A stretch of DNA of 64,000 bases from the human T2T-CHM13v2.0 reference genome, Homo sapiens (GCF_009914755.1 NC_060927.1), one strand, 5' to 3'. Positions 43,950-57,216 are shown, counted from the first letter of the stretch. Notes: generated by a model not told the origin, from the letters alone. Numbers and translations are program-made.

Positions 43950-46900
43950 TGAGCTCCAGCAACTATTACAGGTGGCCGGCCGGCCTTCCTTCCTTCCGCC
44001 CTCGCCCTCTTCATGCCTCAGAAACGTGGCCTACTCTGCATTCGGTGTGTGCGGAAGCAGCAATCACAGAGGCAGCCCTAATACCGGAGGCGGCGGCGGC
44101 AGCAGCAGGGCCAGGTGGTAGCTCGGGGCTGAGGATCGCGGCGGGGGCAGCCGCTATGGGGCCCAAGCCCTGACACACGTACCATTCGCTCAAGTCGGCG
44201 GTACGCGCCGCCACCGCCGCCGAGGAGGCCACCTGGGACTTGTGGCCGCAGTCCGACGAGGGCGACACGAGGGCAGACGGTGTAGCCGAATCGTAGCCAG
44301 AGCTGGGCGGCGGCGAGCGCCCGTGCACCTTCATGTGCTTACGCAGCGAGCTGGGGTGCGTGTAGCACTTGTCGCAGCCCCGCACCTTGCACGTGTATGG
44401 CTTGTCGCTAGTGTGCACGTGCGAATGCTTCTTACGGTCGCTGCTGTTGGCGAAGCGCCGCTCGCAGCCCTCGAACTCGCATCTGAAGGGCTTCTCGCCT
44501 GGCGGAGGCAACGCAGAGACATTAGTGCTTGTGGGTCGTGTTCCCGTCAGGTGCTTGCCACCCTCCCCCATTCGTCTCTCATTTTCTGGAAAAGAACTAC
44601 AAAATATTTTCAGAAATCCCTTTCCACGGCGCCTCAGGTCGAGCACCCCTTTCCCTCGTGCAGAGAGCGCCCCCGGTGCCCTCTCTTGAACGCCTCCATC
44701 CCTCCCGCCTTCCTCCTCTGGGCTCATGGGGAGGGTATGGAGGAGGAGCGACAGTGACTCCATCTTAGTCGAGTTTCCATCCTCGAAAATCCTGATCCAC
44801 TCGGGTTGTTTCCTCCAAATTTTCTCCACTTGGAACCAGAAGCACCTCTGCTCGGAAATACATTAACGGAGGAGCTCACAATATAGTTAACGGGGAAGCT
44901 CACATCTGCTCGATTTAAAGTTGCTGTTTCAGACTAACTTCTCTGCCGCTACCCCGCCCAGCCGTTCATCCCCCCCACCCACCCCCATCCTGGCCCAAAT
45001 TGTTTCCTAAAGTAGGTTTTGCGCAAACGCCAAAGCGATGAAATAATTTAAGGATGCGCAGCCGATGCACATTGTGTGTGCATAAAGTGGATTCGTGCTG
45101 CAGGGAGAGGTATTCTGAGCAATGATTCACTTCAGAAGAGATTTTTACAGGAATGGAGCCCCCTCCCTCTTTCCTTCTACCCCCTGAGGGCAAACATTTA
45201 GCAGCATTCTTCAAATCTTGCCTAAACCTTCCGGGATCCCTCCAGATACGCTCGCCAGTAATAATATTTCATTACGCTGCTCCAGAGGCTTCCTGGAGAC
45301 CGTGCTGTGGGCAGCTGGCCCTCCCAGTCCGCACTGACTTGCGATGTCGACCGGTCTGCCCAGACCACCCCCACCTGGCTGTCGGGCCTCTCGGTCCTAA
45401 GACGAGGGGTTGGCGCGGTAGGGTCCGCACAGGCCAAATGGGATCCGAGGTGTCTACCGCAACCACGCCCTTGAGCGCTGCGGCTTCGGGAAGAAAACAG
45501 CTGCTGCTGTCAGGCCAGGCCTGGCTCCGCAGCCCGGAGGGCCACCAGGCGGCTGGCATAGGCCGGGGAGGGGCTGGGATCGGTGGCTGCGATGCCCTGT
45601 AGAGCCGAGGGAAGGCGCGAGTGCACGTTAGAGTGACAATATTGGCCGGACCGAGCCCCAATCGGGGAGCTCACGGCCAGCTGAATTCGCTGACGTGTAG
45701 GAGAGGAAAGGACCCCGAGAACCCGGAAGCCTAGATTCCTGCCGGAGCTGCAAGTGCTGCGGAAATGGGGGAAGAAGGTTTCTGGGCGCTTTAAACAAAT
45801 GGCTGCCTCCCAGCGCTCTGAGTTAAGGGACCGGCTACCTAGCGTCTAGCTGAGGAGGAAGACGCGCAGCTGGAGAACTGTTGCCTTTGTAGTTGCTTCT
45901 CCCGCCGCATCCAGGAAAAACAGGCGCTTTGGGGCTGGTTAGAACAAACAAAGCCCCAATTCCCGAGCCCTGTTGAGGCTCGGACAGAGAGGTTTGCGCA
46001 CAACCTGCGCTTCTGCGCAATCAGCGGCTCCTGAGCCCGGGTCTCCGGCACCACCTGGTCGCTGGATTCCCACCCTACAGGAGCACAGCTAGTACACTGA
46101 ACAGTCTGGAAGGTGTTGGCACCTGCCATTTCGCGGGACACTGGCACCATTTTATAAAACAGTGATAGAAAGATGCGGAATAAATCAGTGTTCCTATTTG
46201 CCCCCATTTTTATCTCCTCTGATTCCTGCCAGCATTTGCAAACCCAAAACTTTCTTCCTTCTTCTCTTTCAAAAAAAAAAAAAAAATTACAAAAAACATA
46301 CAATTCAGGGCCTGCAAAAGAACCAAGGTTATTTTGAGAAAACAGAGGTGAAATGGAATTAGAATTTGGTGCCCCTCCCCAACAACCCCCACCCCCAACA
46401 AAAATCCCGCCAAACGCTTATCCGATCTCGTGAGCGCCTCACTGGACATTCACGTAAAACAAAAACAATTATTTCGCTCCAGACGAGGAGCAGAGGAGAA
46501 AACAGCAGTGCACTGAGTGATACCGGCAGCCGGGAAGTTCGCAGGCCCCTAGGAGGCCAGGTGAGGCCGCGCCCCAGCTTGCTCCGGAGCTGCAGGAGGC
46601 GCCCTGGTCTCTGCGCTTGACATCACCCCCGCCCCCCGCCAACACCCGGCCTCCAGTCCTTCCCCCTCCCTCCAGCTCCCTGCACTGCGCCCTGGGTGGG
46701 TGGGTGAATGTGAAGAGGCGGCGTTGGGCTAGGCCCCTGCAGCCCGCTCGGAGCGTCCTAGGCCCGGGGCTGCGCTGTGAAAGACCCAGATTCTCATCCC
46801 AGAGGCCCAGCAGTCCTGAAAGGCCTCCTCTCCGACCCTGAGCCGGGTCCGCCGAACAAAGTTCGGAAGCTCGGGCTAGCTGGGCCAGCGCCATTTTCTC

Positions 46901-47408: not shown

Positions 47409-49104
47409 CTTTTTATGACTAGGAGGGGGATTTGAGGGAAATGCCCGAGCAGGCCAGACTCTGTAGTTCGTTGTTGGTCGTGTTTGTTTGTTTGTTTGTT
47501 TTTGTTTGTTGTTTCCCCCACCCCCCACCGCTAATGAATCAGGACCGCGAACCGAAAGAACGCACAAAATTCTGTCCTGAAAACACGAAAACCTGAGCCA
47601 GCCGTGGCGCACTGAACTTGCTTCTCTGCTGTAGGTCGACTGTGCTAAGAATTTAACCATTTTCTGCTTCACAGAATTCAAACAGTGGGCCGGCAAAGAG
47701 CTGTAAAAGTTTGTTTGTTTAAAAAAAAAAAAAAAAAAAACCCTGTCATTAAAGATGAGTTCCTTCTCCAGCTCAGGACTGCGAGTCTACCTTCCGGGTG
47801 TCCGCCGCCAGCTCCCGGAGTAGCAGGCCTGGGGCCAGGATTCCAGTGTGACCTACCGCCCCTTCCCGAAGCTAAAACCTCTGGTGAGGGGGTGAGATCC
47901 ATGCGACATTGTGGGAAACCCTGAAAAGAACTCAGGGAAACCGTACACTTCCAGACAAGCTTTAGAAATAAAGTGCCAGGCTCCAAGTGGACTTTGGTCT
48001 GGTCTCCGCATGTGCCAGTGTCCGGGCCATGGACCTTCCCCGGGAAGGGAGAGTTTGGGGAGAAGATAGGCGTTAGAACAACTAGCCTTAGGAAGTTCTT
48101 TGACTCCAACAATTGTCGATGTTCCAGCAAGAATAGGGGCGAGTAAGGCAAGGCACCGGGCAGTAGGAGAAGTGGGGCACCAAGCTGGAATTCATTTTAT
48201 TTTCTCCTGTCCCCACCAGTCCCCTTCTCCCGCCCCCAAAATGGGGGAGGGGAGAAGATGTTGATTTCTTAAACTTCCAGGGAGGAGGAGCGAGAAAACC
48301 CTAACTAAGGAGAGTACAAACAATGGCTGCTAAACTAATTAATGTAACTTCACAGGCTGTTCTGGAAGTGTGAAAACTTTCTCCTTGCAGTTGTATTAAT
48401 TAGAGATGCTCTGGCCAGAGGAGTTCAATTTTGCAGGCTCTTGAACGATACTCCTTTTTTTCTGTTAACTAGAAGTAGCAGATGTAGTTGACACATGTCC
48501 CCATTTCCCTTAGCAGCTTGGTAAATGATATTTAAGGTGGATAGGTCTGTGCTAAAGCGAAAGTGAGGGTCCACCAAACATCCCTAGTGTCCGGCCACCA
48601 AGGCTCAAAAATACGTACAAAGTTAGCCCATTCGACCCCCAACTCCTAAAGAAGGCTCCAGGGCCTGGTAACCTCTCAGTCCAGGTGGGCCAGGTTATCA
48701 GGACTACAGGTGGAAGAGTTCTGCTGCGCAATTCCAAAGGGACAAGGAAAAAAGTTAGACAGCTGTTCTTATGTCTTTACGACTTTGGGGAACAATGCTG
48801 TTTTAAAATATCTTAAAATCAAACTCTTAAGCAGAGAGCACATGTTTGCACACACAGGGTCTTAGGCACGTTCACCCTTGTCCCCCCCAGAACAGAAATC
48901 CCGCACTATCCTCCCTACACACAGCCTCCGGAAACTTCTGTGATTCTAAGAATAGAAGCGCATAATTAATATTTTATGGCCTTGGCTCATGGAAACAACC
49001 CCAAAATATTTCCCCCTCCCCTCAGTTGGGACTTGAGGAAATCCAGACCCGAGGGCCTGCTTCCCCAGAGGGTCCGCACGCGACAGACAGCGCCGAATAC
49101 TGAC

Positions 49105-49722
49105 CTGTGTGAGTTCGTTTGTGTATTTTGAGATTTTCTGATCTAGCAAAGACCTTCCCACACCCCGGGAAAGGACAAGGGAAGGGCTTCTCGCCCGTGT
49201 GCACGCGGATGTGATTTACAAGTTTGTATTTGGCTTTGAAGGGCTTTCCCTGGCGCGGACACTCCTCCCAGAAGCAAATGTGGTTGGCCTGTTCCGGGCC
49301 GCCGACGTGCTCCACGGTGACGTGCGTGACCAGCTCGTGCATGGTGCTGAAAGTTTTGGAGCAGAGGCTCGGGGTCGCGGTGCCGTCGGCCGCCAGCCAC
49401 TTGCAGATGAGCTCCTGTTTGATGGGCTGGCGCATGTAGCGGAAGAAAGCGCCAGGACCGTGGGGCGCAGCGAGGTTCACCGTCAGGTTCATGCCCCCGT
49501 AGCCATGCAGGGCTGCGGCAGCTGCCAGGGCGTCGCTGCGGGCCGCAGGCCCTGGCGGGAAGGGCTCCGGCCGCGCGTACATGTCTCCAGGGAGCCCCAG
49601 ACGCAGGAGTCCATTCAAAGGACGGCTGGGGGAGGCCTGGGGAGGCTCCTCGTGGAGGCCCGGGAACACCGAGGGGCTGGAGGCGGCGGTGAGCTGGGGG
49701 CCATGGTGTCCAGAGCTGCTAC
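49105..49722 (-). CDS. ZIC4: ZIC4 exon 3 (ZF-NC motif and C2H2 fingers 1-3)
   Basis: Acceptor ACAACAG|GT, donor ACAG|GTCAGT, 618 nt. Encodes [19 protein letters not shown]...[59 protein letters not shown], diagnostic of Zic/opa. Confidence 0.98.
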
Positions 49723-50243
49723 CTGTTGTCGAAACAAATAGCGCGCATGAGAACGGGTGGCGTGGGCTGCGCGCTCTTCCCTGGGCCCCGGGGGGCAGGC
49801 CCAGCCCTGCCGCACTACGGCCTCTGCAGTCAGCCGTGGAACTCAGAGCCAGACAGCGCCAGCAGTGAACCCGGTGGACAGAGCAAGGCCAAACACCTCC
49901 GCCGCCATTGGGCCGAATTGCTGTTGGGCCAAGTCCCCCGCCGCGCCATGAGCTAGAGAGGGATGGTAGCGGCAGAGTAGATGTAAGGGGTAATGGAAGG
50001 CGCAGGGCTGAGTCTGTGGGTTGCTGGGGGTTCTGCTCCAGAGGGGTAGGAGCTGAGCCCCAAGCGCACTTTGGCGGCTAACACCCCGGGGCTCTCCGGG
50101 GCACGATGCCCTGCGGGGAGTGGAGGTGACAGAAATGATGATGTTGGAGGTGGTGGTGGTTCTGAAGCGCCCCAGCCATATATATTTTCAGTGCCCCGCT
50201 TGGCTAGGAGAGGGCGGCCGGCTGCTTGCCGACCCACGCTCCC
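49723..50243 (-). pseudogene. Decayed (frameshifted) ancestral Zic4 N-terminal coding sequence inside ZIC4 intron 2
   Basis: Switching frames on the minus strand gives GSVG..RPLLAKRG / LKIYMAGALQNHHHLQHHHFCHLHSPQGIV / [22 protein letters not shown] / HYP..QQFGP / [17 protein letters not shown]. The last segment is in frame with exon 3. The order matches my recollection of non-mammalian Zic4 N-termini. Confidence 0.6.
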
Positions 50244-52892
50244 CGGAGCTCCCTGTACCGGGCCGCTAACACCACTGCCACCTGACAGTGGGGAGGGGAA
50301 AGGAAAACCACACAAAAAAACTTCTGTAAAGTTTTTTTTTTCTTTCTTTCTTTCTCTTCTTCTTCCCAAGGTTTGGATTTGGGCGCGCCCACCCCCTTGG
50401 CTATTAATGCCTACGCGAAATCCTGCACACTACAGAAGTAGCAGCAGGGCGCGTTAGGAAGTCAATAGAGATTCAGGGCCGTGGCCTGGACCCACAGAGA
50501 GGAACAATCGCCTGGGTAGCCCATTGGCCCGCGGCCGGGTCCGACGTCAGTGATGACAGGTCCTGCCGCACGCGGTCGGTCTCTCTCTCTCTCTCTCACA
50601 CTTCCCTGCTCCAACCGCCACCCCCTCACACACCTCTCCCCCAAACATATACCCTCTTTCCCTCCCTCACCCCACCCCCACAGCATCTCAAGCTTCCACT
50701 GCTCATGCGCTCTGACCCGGGCACAAATCCTTTTCTCTCCCCTTGAGCCTCCTCCCCCTCCTCTCCGGAAAGCTGAGTGGATCAGCTTTGACTCAGGGCT
50801 CCTGGAAGTACTCGGGGCTGGGTTATGCCACCATTCACCACAACTTTGGGGAGGCAGCATTGCGGGACCTCAGTCGGGGCTGATGGGCAGCATCGTGTGC
50901 GCAGAGATGGCGGTCTCGTTGGGCAGTTTGTCCCTGCAGCCTGCAAGAGGAGGGGGTCGGGATCGAAGGACCGAAGGAGGTTGCTGACTCAGGAGCCAGG
51001 AGCTGAGAAACTCCTAGGCTAGCAGCCGTTGAGCCTAATTTTATTTTCTGGCTTTCTCCGAAATGTCTCGTTTCCCTCATCTTTCTGGTCCTTTTCGTCT
51101 CTCTTATTTTCCCCAAAACGTCTACCTCACTTCGTCTTCCTTTCTCCTCCCCTCCCCCTCTCTTTCCTCTATACTCTCTTCCCATTTAGCCTTGCAGGCC
51201 CCTCCTCCCCGGTGTTGGAGAGCTCAAAGACGCGCGAAACTCAAGGATCTGGCCCTGACCAGGGACGGGATTAGGCGGGAAGTGGTGACGGCCTGAAAAG
51301 GCTGGGCTCGAACCCGTGCCTTCCTGAAAGGACTCTCCCCGCCACAAGTCACACCCACCCGCAGGCCTGCTGGCCAAAGAAACAAAGGAGTCGGGCGTGG
51401 ATCCAGGAGAAACAGGTTTTCGCTCTCGGATCTCCCTGGGCAAATCAGGGATCCTGAGCGCTATACCCCGCAGTCGTACGGAGCCTCTGGGAAAGGGGAT
51501 TTAAGGGTGACTTCCACTTTCAGCTTCGGCTACTTGTTGCCTGCGGTCCAAGCCTTCTCTGCTTCCTCCTACCTCGTCTTAGGCCTCTGTAGAAAGTGCA
51601 CGCCGCGTTTCCCCTTCCAGGCTCTGAGAGGGCCTGCAGGCCCGTGGCCGCCTCCGACAAGATGCCTTCCAGTGCTAGGGGGGCCACTTTGGCGGGATGG
51701 GGGTCGGTTGGTTAAAAAAAACTTAAGTTCTGGCTCAGTCGAGTGTGGCAAAAGCCGAGGGTCGGGGGTTGGGGGGCTTTGGGGGCGAGCGGTAGTCCTT
51801 TGTCTGAGCCGACCGGCTAAGGTCAGCTGCGTCGTCCGGCGATTTAAAGGGCTGCTGGCCGGGACTCCTGCCTTGTCGCTGCAGCCGAAAATGCCAGTCT
51901 AAGTGCTTGGGCTTCCCTGGCGGCCATAAAAAGTGTCCCCCAAACAGAGAAAGGCTTGTATCTTTAAGAAAAGTTTTAAAGATTGAGTAAAATATCCCAT
52001 ACCCCTTAGCAGAGGCAAGAAATTTTGGCAGATACCAGCAATGCTGAATAGAAATTGACTGAACTGCCCCTCCTCCCATCCCCAGCACCAAGGACTATTC
52101 TTATACATTTCCTGGTCAGTAAATAAGGCCTTAAAAAATTTTTTTTTAAAATAATTAACTGATGTATAACAGTTGGCAGATTCTTTGAGACCTTCATTTA
52201 ATGCATTGTTCCTCCCTTGGGTGCACTTTAGGGAGGGATTAACTTCCACAACAATTTCTCTCTACTTAGACACGTCCAGGTCTTTCTGCTCCTCCTACAG
52301 GAAGAGCTTGGATAACTCTACCAATAGATACTCCTCAGTATTTAAAAAAAAAAAATTAGAGAAGAGTATTTGACTGCCAGACCCCCACTCCCTACTCTCA
52401 AAACCAAGGGCTTCCACACAGCAGTTTTGTGACTAGACTCTCAGGATATGTCTCCCTGGCTTTCACTTTCTCCCATGGTTTACTCCTCCACCAACAGGCA
52501 CCATCTCTCTGATCCTTCCCCTGCTCTGATCCTTCATCCAAGCAGTGGCATGGCCAGGTCTCCAGTGAAAGGTTTACACATCTCAATGAGTCATTTCACC
52601 TCCCAGGTGTATGTTGAATGATGCAATTGTCTAGGCAACTCTGGACTGAATCCATGAAGGACTCCAAAAAGCAAAACAAAAGCCAGAGTATGTTTTTACC
52701 TGAGACTCCTTGCCCAGTTGTTTTTACTATCCGCATCTTAACACCAAACTTGTTCAGCTTATGTGGTATTCAGGTTTAAGTGCAGGGGAACTTCTGCAAT
52801 ATTTCGGCAATTAAAATTTTTTTTCTCTGCTGGACCCTAGGTAATCTAAAACTAACAGTTCAGAATGTTTGTCAAACTCACTTTAGCTTTAA

Positions 52893-55980: not shown

Positions 55981-56050
55981 TTGACTCTTTAAGAGTGTTT
56001 CGGTAAAGCCGTAATCGTTTCCTCATCACCAAGGATGTCTTGTATCTCAT
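55981..56050 (-). CDS. ZIC4: ZIC4 exon 2 coding part (MRYKTSLVMRKRLRLYRNTLKES-); whole exon 55981-56065
   Basis: Acceptor TTTTCTTCCCAAACAG|GCT (exon starts 56065), ATG at 56050, donor TCAA|GTAAGT at 55981 (phase 1). Confidence 0.93.
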
Positions 56051-57216
56051 TTTCTGACTTTGAGCCTGTTTGGGAAGAAAAGAGTGACAGTCACTAGTTA
56101 AACAATTTTACACGTCTGTGTGGCAACATCCTGTGGTTTGAATGTATGAATGAAAGAAGGAGTTGATCTGAAGATCTTTCGGTCTTTCTTTGACCATTTT
56201 CAAATTTTGAAGCTAAAGAAAAGGATTTTGCCGGGAACAGCCCATATTGCAAAATGATATATCTTTGGTGATAAAAACATTGAAAAATTATAATTTCCCA
56301 GCTAGGCTTTTATTTGAAACTCCTTTGTTGTTTTTTGCAAGCAGAAGTAATCTCTCTTTTAGTCAGTGCTCAAAAATCTGTAGCTTCCCAAATTTGAATT
56401 AATTGCGTAAGAAACCTTATTATTTTTCAGAAGTTTATTAACTGAAATTTAGTGAGGTGTGGTGGGGAGAGCCTACTGAACTCTGAGAGGTTAGCAGCTA
56501 AAATTTGATTTATAACTGTTGGAACCAAGAGGAGAGGAATTTCTTTGCAGGTTTTCAAATCCTGTTCTGCCTGTGGTGGTGCAGAATTCCTTAGCCTCAC
56601 ATTTCCCATACCCCAGACCCATTTGGGATTCATCACCGGTTGACTTTTTAAAGTTAATATAAAATTTGTCAGGTTAAAAAGGTATAATTTTAATCGTTTG
56701 GTTCAAATCATCCACATTTCATAGTTGAGAAGGGTAGAAATAACACCTCCCATAAGATATACACATTACTCATCAGATTCACTTTGTGACTAAAGTTACC
56801 AAGCCATTGGCCGCCTTAAATACTTAAAGCCATCCTGAGGACCTCTGCATCTGTCAGGCAAGGCTGAGGCAGTTGAGCAGCCAGACAGAAGCATCTATCC
56901 GGCCCCCACCCTCAATTTGGCCTAGAAAGAAAAACAGTCATTGAAAAGGTCTCAGGCTGGACAAACACAGCAAGTCCTCTGTCAATGGGGATGTCTGCCC
57001 ACAGAACAAGCAGTTGTTTAACTTGTTGAACCACAGGCCAAATCCAAGTGGGACTCTGTTATCTTAAACGGTATCCAGTTCTCTATGCACAAAGATCTCT
57101 CTCTCTCTCTCTCCCCCTCAACGTCCAACCAGAATTCCAACTGGCTTGGCGGCTTTTACCCTTCCATCTCCCCTCTTTTCTAGGTCCAGGCCTAGGAGGC
57201 AGGGGGGTAGACTCAC

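What the first reader, a model, noticed from the sequence alone, without database searches (positions are those of the whole stretch)
49723..50243. Fossil of the ancestral His-rich Zic4 N-terminus in ZIC4 intron 2
Seen: the intron directly upstream of the exon-3 acceptor reads, across frameshifts, GSVGRQAAGRPLLAKRG | LKIYMAGALQNHHHLQHHHFCHLHSPQGIV | [26 protein letters not shown] | [15 protein letters not shown] | [17 protein letters not shown], which runs straight into exon 3 (SSSGHHG). From memory, fish/amphibian Zic4 begins MSVD..DP.FSKRN..LRLVDLAGAHHHHHH..TPQSVTG..HPGE..EPRLGPSPF..LKLSPAHHYP..AFGP..MFVSTTGSY, and ZIC5 has related PPLSKRN..LRLADLA and MFISASG motifs. The motifs occur in the same order, and GGG-AGC-GTG (50243) sits where ATG-AGC-GTG would be. 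ZIC1 in this window keeps its long N-terminus continuous with the same FPGLHE..GDMY region. Inference: this lineage intronised about 170 codons by using a cryptic acceptor (CAG|GT within codons T-G) and recruited new upstream exons.
Basis: partly seen in the sequence, partly recalled or inferred. Interest (0 to 1): 0.85.

Follow-up and report, generated by a model that had tools for sequence, protein, structure and literature searches.

The report
Decayed ancestral ZIC4 N-terminus in intron
The DNA just upstream of human ZIC4 exon 3 is the broken remains of a longer protein start that opossum, birds, frogs and fish still use, so placental mammals appear to have lost one of two ancient versions of this brain-development gene.

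Summary
On the minus strand, 49724-50224 aligns collinearly, across frame changes, with the N-terminal ~200 residues of non-eutherian Zic4. The opossum query scores 118 with 69 of 156 codons identical. None of 200 dinucleotide shuffles, 150 residue-shuffled proteins or 182 other window segments reaches that score. ZIC1 and ZIC5 queries score only 44-59.

The stretch is dead as coding DNA. It needs 4-6 frame changes, contains 1-3 in-frame stops, and has no ATG where the start should be.

The exon-3 acceptor and the upstream MRYKT exon are not a new invention of this lineage. The same short N-terminus appears in echidna, bird, turtle and lizard gene models. Fifteen fish, frog and reptile models use the same acceptor to skip the ZOC block.

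Opossum keeps the long form intact. None of 32 eutherian models has it. The best reading is loss of an ancient long isoform on the eutherian stem, together with faster change in the retained protein.

I found no description of the relic in the searchable literature. It is a new example of a known kind of event, of moderate interest.

The parts
49724..50224 (-). Whole relic of the ancestral Zic4 long-isoform N-terminal coding region (span aligned to opossum residues 12-207)
   Evidence: Frameshift-aware alignment scores 118, with 69 of 156 aligned codons identical.
50235..50243 (-). GGG-AGC-GTG, the possible site of the former ATG-AGC-GTG start (weak)
   Evidence: The sequence is seen. It is in frame with the …AKRG piece, but it lies outside the significant alignment.
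50132..50224 (-). Block 1: remnant of the subclass-B N-motif and the His tract (QPAALS, then TAG, then ALKIYMAGALQNHHHLQHHHF)
   Evidence: 13 of 31 codons are identical to opossum. An in-frame TAG sits at 50206-50204 where opossum has K. An alternative path with a frame change near 50189 is.
50001..50129 (-). Block 2: …[23 protein letters not shown]…ATHRLSPA, matching …GHPHSMAPSHPGEYAAESRLGPSPF…ALKLSPA
   Evidence: 21 of 43 codons are identical. The frame changes at about 50130.
49876..49998 (-). Block 3: HYPLH…[19 protein letters not shown], matching the second His tract and …MAGGHAEVV…GAFGP
   Evidence: 13 of 41 codons are identical. The frame changes at about 49996-49999. About 24 opossum His/Pro-tract residues are absent.
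49755..49874 (-). Block 4: remnant of the ZOC region (LSGSEFHG… for …TAGRDFLIRRDL…; [11 protein letters not shown] for APMMPGLSEQP)
   Evidence: 15 of 32 codons are identical. In-frame stops lie at TGA 49832-49830 and TAG 49817-49815. The frame changes at about 49875. The path is less certain here: with a higher frameshift penalty another frame is taken, with a stop at 49845-49843.
49724..49752 (-). Blocks 5-6: SH, then ALFVSTT(G). This is the best-kept end of the relic. Its T-rich codons now form the pyrimidine tract and CAG of the exon-3 acceptor.
   Evidence: 7 of 9 codons are identical to opossum, with two frame changes at about 49753 and 49745. The piece …LFVSTTG is kept in the lemur, two bat and seal read-through models. 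The splice role is inferred from its position.
49723..49724 (-). AG of the exon-3 acceptor, falling inside the former T-G codons
   Evidence: Sequence plus the annotation given with the finding. The same junction is used in non-mammal models.
49105..49722 (-). ZIC4 exon 3 (SSSGHHG… through the ZF-NC region and the first zinc fingers). This is the surviving 3' part of the ancestral first coding exon.
55981..56065 (-). ZIC4 exon 2, holding the short-isoform start [23 protein letters not shown] (ATG 56050-56048) and the donor A|gtaagt
   Evidence: Orthologous peptides occur in echidna, birds, turtle and lizards.

Best explanation
The ancestral amniote Zic4 gene made two kinds of protein from one locus. 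The long form had its start codon in the same exon as the first zinc fingers, as ZIC1 still does. Its N-terminus carried the LSKRNxALRLVDLA motif, two His tracts and a ZOC box (RDFLIRRD). The short form started in a distal exon (MR[YH]KTSLVMRKR…) and was spliced to an acceptor lying inside the long form's coding sequence (…FVSTTG|SYPGHHG).

On the eutherian stem the long-form reading frame was disabled and then decayed. The former coding stretch is now constitutive intron. Its last ~25-50 nt still serve as the pyrimidine tract and acceptor of exon 3.

Shown here:
- homology and collinearity of the relic;
- its lesions in human;
- an intact long form in opossum;
- the short form and the shared acceptor in non-mammal gene models.

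Inferred:
- the timing on the eutherian stem;
- which lesion came first (start loss, promoter loss or a frameshift);
- neutral decay afterwards.
For: (1) The alignment is collinear over 49724-50224 with z = 7-11. For each of 5 queries, 0 of 200 DNA shuffles reach the score. For each of 2 queries, 0 of 150 shuffled proteins and 0 of 182 window segments reach it.

(2) Scores fall with phylogenetic distance: opossum 118, duck 93, turtle 92, coelacanth 87, gar 81, frog 76, catshark 61. They exceed the ZIC1 scores (44, 59) and the ZIC5 scores (45-58).

(3) The lesions are 4-6 frame changes and 1-3 in-frame stops, depending on the penalty used. There is no ATG at the expected start.

(4) A search with opossum residues 1-208 returned 89 proteins. 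The only mammal among them is the opossum cluster itself; the rest are fish, amphibian and sauropsid Zic4 and weaker ZIC5 hits.

(5) 0 of 32 eutherian models match the long motif or the ZOC pattern. These include elephant, manatee and anteater. 23 of 32 carry the MRYKT-type start.

(6) The short start is found in echidna and in 8 sauropsid models, plus 5 further bird models.

(7) 15 non-mammal models join …SAG to SYPGHHG, and 27 run straight through FVSTTG-SYPGHHG.

(8) Lemur, two bat, cattle and seal models read through the relic in frames that are non-ancestral and shifted by 0-5 frame changes relative to human. The minimum nucleotide difference from human is 11-17% in the relic, against 1.3-3.4% in exon 3.

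(9) The N-terminus is strongly conserved from catshark to opossum.
Against: All evidence from other species comes from predicted gene models (NCBI and Ensembl type). No DNA or RNA-seq from those species was available here, so the isoforms in birds, turtles and fish are not confirmed by transcripts.

The word-based protein searches list only the best hits. One search listed 120 of 1370 proteins, and one search examined 15 candidates. Absence of a long form in eutherians and monotremes, and absence of the short form in amphibians and fish, is therefore weak evidence.

The echidna model is of the short type and no monotreme long form was found. The loss may therefore be older than eutherians with retention in marsupials, or it may have happened twice.

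Composition inflates the scores somewhat (reversed proteins score 55-79).

The exact lesion map depends on the query and the frameshift penalty, especially in the ZOC block.

Shared lesions among eutherian orders could not be examined.
Confidence: 0.85

Rival explanations
1. The mammalian lineage newly turned about 170 codons into intron by adopting a previously unused (cryptic) acceptor inside the T-G codons, and recruited brand-new upstream exons.
For: The acceptor does lie inside former codons, and the frame runs straight through it. In eutherians the upstream exon supplies the only start.
Against: The same junction is used in 15 non-mammal models that skip the ZOC block. The exon-2 peptide is conserved in echidna, birds, turtle and lizards. 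Opossum, a mammal, keeps the long form.
Confidence: 0.07
2. Chance resemblance. A GC-rich stretch rich in His, Pro and Ala codons happens to mimic a low-complexity N-terminus.
For: The query is low in complexity. Reversed proteins score 55-79, above the DNA shuffles. Plain tblastn output is full of weak His/Pro matches elsewhere.
Against: The real scores exceed every control: 0 of 200, 0 of 150 and 0 of 182. Non-repetitive motifs match in order (PAALS, ALK/ALR, PG..AA..RLG, LSPA, FGP, LFVSTT). The scores follow phylogeny and are specific to the Zic4 paralogue.
Confidence: 0.02
3. This is an addition to the best explanation rather than an exclusive rival. The relic has stayed recognisable because parts of it are now under non-coding constraint, as the 3' splice-site region of exon 3 and perhaps as cis-regulatory or CpG-island DNA of the ZIC1/ZIC4 locus.
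For: The last ~16 codons are nearly invariant in the human, lemur, bat and seal read-throughs. The minimum human-bat difference of 14-17% over the relic looks lower than my recalled neutral human-bat divergence of roughly 30%; that figure is recalled, not computed. GC stays at 63-65% across the relic and drops to 53-54% upstream of about 50300. A RefSeq enhancer feature (48982-49719) abuts the relic (annotation given with the finding). Dead exons kept as regulatory elements are a described phenomenon (PMC2831330; title and start of the abstract seen in the listing).
Against: The divergence figures are lower bounds taken from translated gene models, not from DNA. The species sampled are those whose relic happens to be read through by a gene model. 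The relic differs from human at least 4-9 times more than exon 3 does. No conservation scores or chromatin data were available.
Confidence: 0.3
4. The stretch is still a coding exon, or an exon extension, of an unannotated human ZIC4 isoform.
For: A stop-free frame continuous with exon 3 extends 118 codons upstream, to 50077. Some gene models in other mammals read through the region.
Against: That open frame has no ATG upstream of exon 3, and for most of its length it is not the ancestral frame. The read-through models differ from one another in frame. None of the 8 RefSeq transcripts has an exon here (annotation given with the finding).
Confidence: 0.02

Closest known systems
Long isoform of non-eutherian Zic4 (for example the opossum model P0045, duck P0044, catshark P0062)
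   Same: The motifs occur in the same order: LSKRN-ALRLVDLA, His tract, PGE..RLGPSPF, ALKLSPAHH, a second His tract, GAFGP, ZOC, HHGMFVSTTG. The position is also the same, directly upstream of and in frame with SYPGHHG…FPGLHE.
   Different: The human copy has frame changes, stop codons, deletions of the His/Pro tracts and no start codon. It is intronic in all RefSeq transcripts.
ZIC1 exon 1 in the same window (63366-64347 +)
   Same: It is the paralogue whose long N-terminus, with its ZOC ([10 protein letters not shown]) and His tract, is continuous with FPGLHE…GDMY in one exon. This is the architecture Zic4 once had.
   Different: ZIC1 is intact and has no internal acceptor in use. Its N-terminus aligns poorly to the relic (score 44, z = 2.4).
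Loss of an alternative first coding exon that leaves a pseudo-exon in an intron (general knowledge of exon death and unitary pseudogenisation; recalled, no specific paper read)
   Same: One of two alternative 5' coding ends decays while the gene itself survives.
   Different: Here the dead part is the 5' portion of an exon whose 3' portion is still used. The relic therefore abuts a live exon, and its end doubles as the splice acceptor.
Exonic remnants and regulatory coding exons (Dong et al., Nucleic Acids Res 2009, PMC2831330; only the title and start of the abstract were seen, in the listing)
   Same: A former coding sequence persists as non-coding DNA near developmental genes.
   Different: Those remnants survive the loss of the whole gene after a genome duplication and are defined by strong conservation. 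Here the host gene survives, and constraint on the relic is not shown.

Membership tests
Orthologous remnant (pseudo-exon) of the Zic4 long-isoform N-terminal coding region | Significant, collinear similarity to Zic4 N-termini across frame changes | tested here: met
   scores of 76-118 against shuffle maxima of 52-67. 0 of 200 DNA shuffles, 0 of 150 shuffled proteins and 0 of 182 window segments reach the real scores.
Orthologous remnant (pseudo-exon) of the Zic4 long-isoform N-terminal coding region | Correct genomic position: same strand, immediately 5' of the part of the exon that survives, with the junction in frame | tested here: met
   the alignment ends at 49724, one base before the exon-3 boundary, and …LFVSTTG runs in frame into SSSGHHG.
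Orthologous remnant (pseudo-exon) of the Zic4 long-isoform N-terminal coding region | Closer to Zic4 than to the paralogues ZIC1 and ZIC5 | tested here: met
   ZIC1 scores 44 and 59, ZIC5 scores 45-58, opossum Zic4 scores 118. One exception: catshark Zic4 scores only 61.
Orthologous remnant (pseudo-exon) of the Zic4 long-isoform N-terminal coding region | Disabling lesions (frameshifts, stops, lost start) | tested here: met
   4-6 frame changes, plus stops at 50206-04, 49832-30 and 49817-15 (or 49845-43 on the other path). Loss of the start codon is only inferred.
Orthologous remnant (pseudo-exon) of the Zic4 long-isoform N-terminal coding region | Synteny at the DNA level with the intact exon of marsupials and sauropsids | not testable with these tools
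   No vertebrate genome DNA other than the window was available.
ZOC box (RDFL-(1-2 aa)-RR consensus, Layden et al. 2010, PMC2988786, passages read) | The consensus is present in the translated relic | tested here: not met
   The human relic reads GSEFHG followed by a stop where opossum has GRDFLIRRD. By contrast, the pattern R[DE][FL][LF].{1,2}[RC][RD] matches 32 non-eutherian Zic4 models.
Functional coding exon | An open frame in the ancestral register with a start codon, conserved among species | tested here: not met
Lineage-specific intronisation through a new cryptic acceptor | The acceptor and upstream exon are absent outside the lineage | tested here: not met
   the same junction and the exon-2 peptide appear in sauropsid and echidna models, and the junction alone in fish and frog models. 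This is gene-model evidence only.

The most novel reading that the evidence does not exclude
Eutherian ZIC4 is not simply 'Zic4 without a ZOC box'. It is the sole survivor of an ancient two-isoform gene. On the eutherian stem the long isoform, with its N-motif, His tracts and ZOC, was lost, and at the same time the retained core changed quickly. Core identity is 92% between opossum and turtle but 78-80% between opossum and eutherians, while eutherian orders are 93-94% alike. The echidna model, which is also of the short type, is similarly divergent.

If this is right, results from Xenopus, zebrafish and chick Zic4 do not transfer to human or mouse ZIC4. The textbook 'Subclass B lacks ZOC' rule would be a eutherian-centred artefact for Zic4. 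The relic itself may be held above neutral as splice-site and regulatory DNA.
Probability: 0.5. Interest if true: 0.55.

Novelty: new member of a known kind. Interest (0 to 1): 0.45.

Why it matters
ZIC4 is deleted together with ZIC1 in Dandy-Walker malformation (PMC4564895, passages read). It is treated as a 'Subclass B' Zic protein that lacks the ZOC box and the His tract (PMC7403390, passages read).

The relic shows that this description is a derived eutherian state. The ancestral gene encoded a ZOC box, His tracts and an N-terminal motif shared with ZIC5, and opossum still does.

This gives three things:
- a dated, testable case of isoform loss;
- a warning against transferring Zic4 function between non-mammalian models and mouse or human;
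- a natural experiment (long versus short form) for asking what the Zic N-terminus does.

It also explains why several automatic gene models in lemur, bats, cattle and seal carry odd N-termini: they read through the relic.

Tried and rejected
- Plain tblastn of 13 N-termini against 49000-51000 gave one long single-frame gapped hit per query plus dozens of weak His/Pro matches. It cannot follow frame changes, so I replaced it with my own frameshift-aware dynamic-programming aligner.
- The first control run hit the 300 s limit and printed nothing. I repeated it on a smaller scale: 5 queries with 200 shuffles, then 2 queries with 150 shuffled proteins and 182 window segments.
- Pfam has no family covering the Zic4 N-terminus. 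Only zinc-finger families matched, so no domain-level test of the relic was possible.
- The search with the turtle exon-2 peptide examined only 15 candidates and did not even recover the mammalian short forms. It therefore says little about amphibians and fish.
- Literature searches found no paper describing the relic or the isoform loss. One search was badly posed, since it did not require the term Zic4, and was useless. The chick zic paper (PMC2908108, one passage) had nothing relevant.
- Aruga et al. 2006 (Genomics), Fujimi et al. 2006 (Dev Dyn) and the 2018 Zic book chapters are recalled only and could not be read. They may already mention the short mammalian N-terminus.
- No supplementary files were consulted.
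- The script stopped with an error after 5 of 8 planned rows. The Pteropus exon-3 row and both cattle rows are missing.

Full report
**What is there.** The last piece (…ALFVSTTG) runs in frame through the acceptor into exon 3 (SSSGHHG…). GGG-AGC-GTG lies at 50243-50235. ZIC1, at the other end of the window, has a single continuous exon from Met1 through its ZOC box ([10 protein letters not shown]) and His tract to LLFPGLHEQ…GDMY.

**Comparison sequences.** I searched with the exon-3 translation among longer proteins. Of 1370 hits the best 120 were listed. They included Zic4 models from catshark, bichir, gar, teleosts, coelacanth, lungfish, amphibians, squamates, turtles, birds, opossum and echidna, plus 32 eutherian models (sequences). 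The non-eutherian long forms share a strongly conserved N-terminus. In an alignment of 15 species from catshark to opossum, the conserved elements run in this order:
- MSVDALG…MDPAFSKRNTALRLVDLAGA
- a His tract
- PQSMTGFPGF…HPHSMAHTHPGE…RLGPSPFGPEHMGH
- AALKLSPAHH
- a second His tract
- MAGH.EVVSSQTGAFGP
- …AQALSAG
- a ZOC box (RDFLIRRD)
- …SSHHGMFVSTTG, directly followed by SYPGHHG…

**Is the resemblance real?** Ordinary tblastn cannot follow frame changes and gave noisy output. I therefore wrote a local protein-to-DNA aligner with BLOSUM62 scoring, affine gaps, a frameshift penalty of 12 and a stop score of -6.

Against 49723-50400 (minus strand), the opossum N-terminus aligns collinearly from residue 12 to 207 over 50224-49724. 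The score is 118, with 69 of 156 aligned codons identical. Duck scores 93 (66 of 155) and catshark 61 (51 of 139).

The controls were:
- **200 dinucleotide-preserving shuffles of the target, for each of five queries.** Means were 35-44 and maxima 52-67, against real scores of 118, 92, 87, 81 and 76. That is z = 7.1-11.1, with 0 of 200 reaching the real score.
- **Reversed proteins.** These score 55-79, so composition helps but does not explain the result.
- **150 residue-shuffled proteins.** The maxima were 80 for opossum and 70 for coelacanth, with 0 reaching the real score.
- **All 182 other 678-nt segments of the window, both strands.** The maxima were 71 and 53, with 0 reaching the real score.

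Paralogue queries score lower: human ZIC1 44, axolotl ZIC1 59, three ZIC5 proteins 45-58. Zic4 scores fall roughly with phylogenetic distance.

**State of the relic.** Using opossum as the guide, the alignment breaks into six frame blocks:

| Block (window, minus strand) | Codons identical to opossum | Notes |
|---|---|---|
| 50224-50132 | 13 of 31 | TAG at 50206-50204 where opossum has Lys |
| 50129-50001 | 21 of 43 | |
| 49998-49876 | 13 of 41 | |
| 49874-49755 | 15 of 32 | Stops at 49832-30 and 49817-15; this is the former ZOC region and reads GSEFHG-stop where opossum has GRDFLIRRD |
| 49752-49747 | 2 of 2 | |
| 49744-49724 | 5 of 7 | |

A 15-species profile gives the same chain, with 4 frame changes and 1 stop at a frameshift penalty of 12, and 6 frame changes and 2 stops at a penalty of 8. 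About nine codons (GFPGFSGHPHSM) and most of the second His/Pro tract are deleted.

The exact lesion list is therefore model-dependent, but every path needs several disabling changes. The idea that GGG 50243 replaces the old ATG fits in frame and spacing, two codons short. It lies outside the significant alignment and remains a guess.

Classifying 32 eutherian, 1 marsupial, 1 monotreme, 24 sauropsid, 11 amphibian and 27 fish or hagfish models by motif shows three N-terminal forms.

1. *Long with ZOC, continuous through FVSTTG-SYPGHHG.* This form occurs in 27 models from catshark to opossum.
2. *Long without ZOC.* Here …SAG is joined directly to SYPGHHG. It occurs in 15 models: coelacanth, two gars, six teleosts, tailed frog, two turtles, python and falcon. 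The missing block ends exactly where human exon 3 begins, so the acceptor is already in use there.
3. *Short.* This form occurs in 23 of 32 eutherian models, in echidna and in 8 sauropsid models (tortoise, chicken, two pigeon, emu, blackbird, gecko, anole). A search with the tortoise peptide added crow, jay, hoatzin, a second emu model and a second chicken model.

Human exon 2 encodes [23 protein letters not shown], with donor A|gtaagt. The tortoise form reads [22 protein letters not shown]. A 23-codon exon kept this similar between mammals and sauropsids, with its start codon, is itself evidence that it is an old coding exon.

None of the 38 amphibian and fish models shows this exon. That absence is weak evidence, because only the best hits were listed. 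One zebrafish model joins a different 5' exon at the same point.

So the acceptor and the distal start are ancestral alternatives, not new recruits.

**Who lost the long form.** None of the 32 eutherian models matches the long motif or the ZOC pattern, and they include elephant, manatee and anteater. A search with opossum residues 1-208 returned 89 proteins, of which the only mammal is the opossum cluster itself. The echidna model is of the short type, and no monotreme long form appeared. The simplest reading is loss on the eutherian stem. An independent or earlier loss involving monotremes cannot be excluded.

Five eutherian models (lemur, two bats, cattle, seal) read through the relic. Aligned to human DNA, they show that the relic exists in those orders. 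They use non-ancestral frames and differ from human by 0-5 frame changes. For example, the horseshoe-bat model is continuous across the point near 50125-50130 where human needs a frame change, so at least some lesions are lineage-specific.

The minimum nucleotide difference from human is 11.3% (lemur), 13.8% and 16.7% (bats) in the relic, against 1.3% and 3.4% in exon 3. The script stopped before the remaining rows. The relic is therefore far less constrained than the exon. Whether it is fully neutral cannot be decided here.

Its last ~16 codons (…[16 protein letters not shown]) are nearly invariant in these models. Since they supply the T-rich tract and the CAG of the acceptor, I infer splice-site constraint there.

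**Accompanying change.** Over the retained core (exon-3 start to …LSE), opossum is 91.6% identical to a turtle and 85.7% to a catshark, but only 78-80% to a primate, elephant and anteater. Those three are 93-94% identical to each other. Echidna is 75-79% identical to everything. This points to a burst of change on the eutherian stem, and in the echidna lineage, in step with reliance on the short form. It is a distance table, not a rate test.

**Literature.** A 2020 paper states that Subclass B proteins (ZIC4, ZIC5) lack the ZOC box and lists His tracts only for ZIC1-3 (PMC7403390, passages). Layden et al. 2010 noted a ZOC-like sequence in Xenopus Zic4 (PMC2988786, passages). Searches for Zic4 combined with ZOC/N-terminal, eutherian/exon, 'Xenopus Zic4', ZOC/intron, opossum, and shorter/N-terminal found no description of an intronic relic or of loss of a long isoform. 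Subscription-journal papers (Aruga 2006, Fujimi 2006, the 2018 Zic book) could not be read and may bear on this. Dead exons that persist near developmental genes are a known class (PMC2831330; title and start of the abstract seen in the listing).

**Verdict.** The relic is real. The claimed mechanism (a new cryptic acceptor plus new exons) is not right. The better account is eutherian loss of an ancient long isoform, whose coding DNA decayed into what is now constitutive intron, with its 3' end retained as the splice acceptor. This is a new example of a known kind of event. It is of moderate interest, chiefly because it revises how ZIC4 is classified and compared across model organisms.

Noticed in passing
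window 44011-44183 (minus strand): Reading through the exon-4 donor, the human frame stays open for 57 more codons, beginning (LSE)WYVCQ… This is the Zic C-terminal NEWYV-type tail that PMC4564895 (Fig. 2 legend) says ZIC4 lacks. The selected transcript splices it out one base before a stop. Elephant, whale, anteater and other models include it. Unlike the N-terminal relic it is not decayed, so an unselected human isoform may still encode it.
   Followed up: partly
window about 50056-50276 (minus strand), by alignment of protein P0008: A cattle-hybrid gene model inserts part of the relic as a cassette exon between the MRSKT exon and exon 3, read in a non-ancestral frame. This could be exonisation of the relic or a model artefact.
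   Followed up: no
proteins P0001, P0024, P0006, P0107, P0045, P0035 and others (retained ZIC4 core): The eutherian and echidna ZIC4 cores are much more divergent from all other vertebrates (73-80% identity) than opossum is (84-92%). Eutherian orders differ little among themselves (93-94%).
   Followed up: partly
protein P0077 (zebrafish isoform X2): A different, unrelated 5' peptide (MFCQKDAIF…) is joined just before SYPGHYG. This suggests that teleosts also splice an alternative upstream exon into the same acceptor.
   Followed up: no
window 50330-50365 (minus strand): A purine-rich run (agaagaagagaaagaaagaaagaaaaaaaaaac) lies just upstream of the relic. GC falls from 63-65% in the relic to 53-54% here. 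This may mark the edge of the former exon or 5'UTR.
   Followed up: no
protein P0013 (Fukomys model): Its N-terminus ends …LPKHPERVQLLEGSISGHHG instead of the MRYKT peptide. To my eye it looks like exon 2 read in another frame, which would suggest an annotation or sequence error in that model. I did not check this.
   Followed up: no
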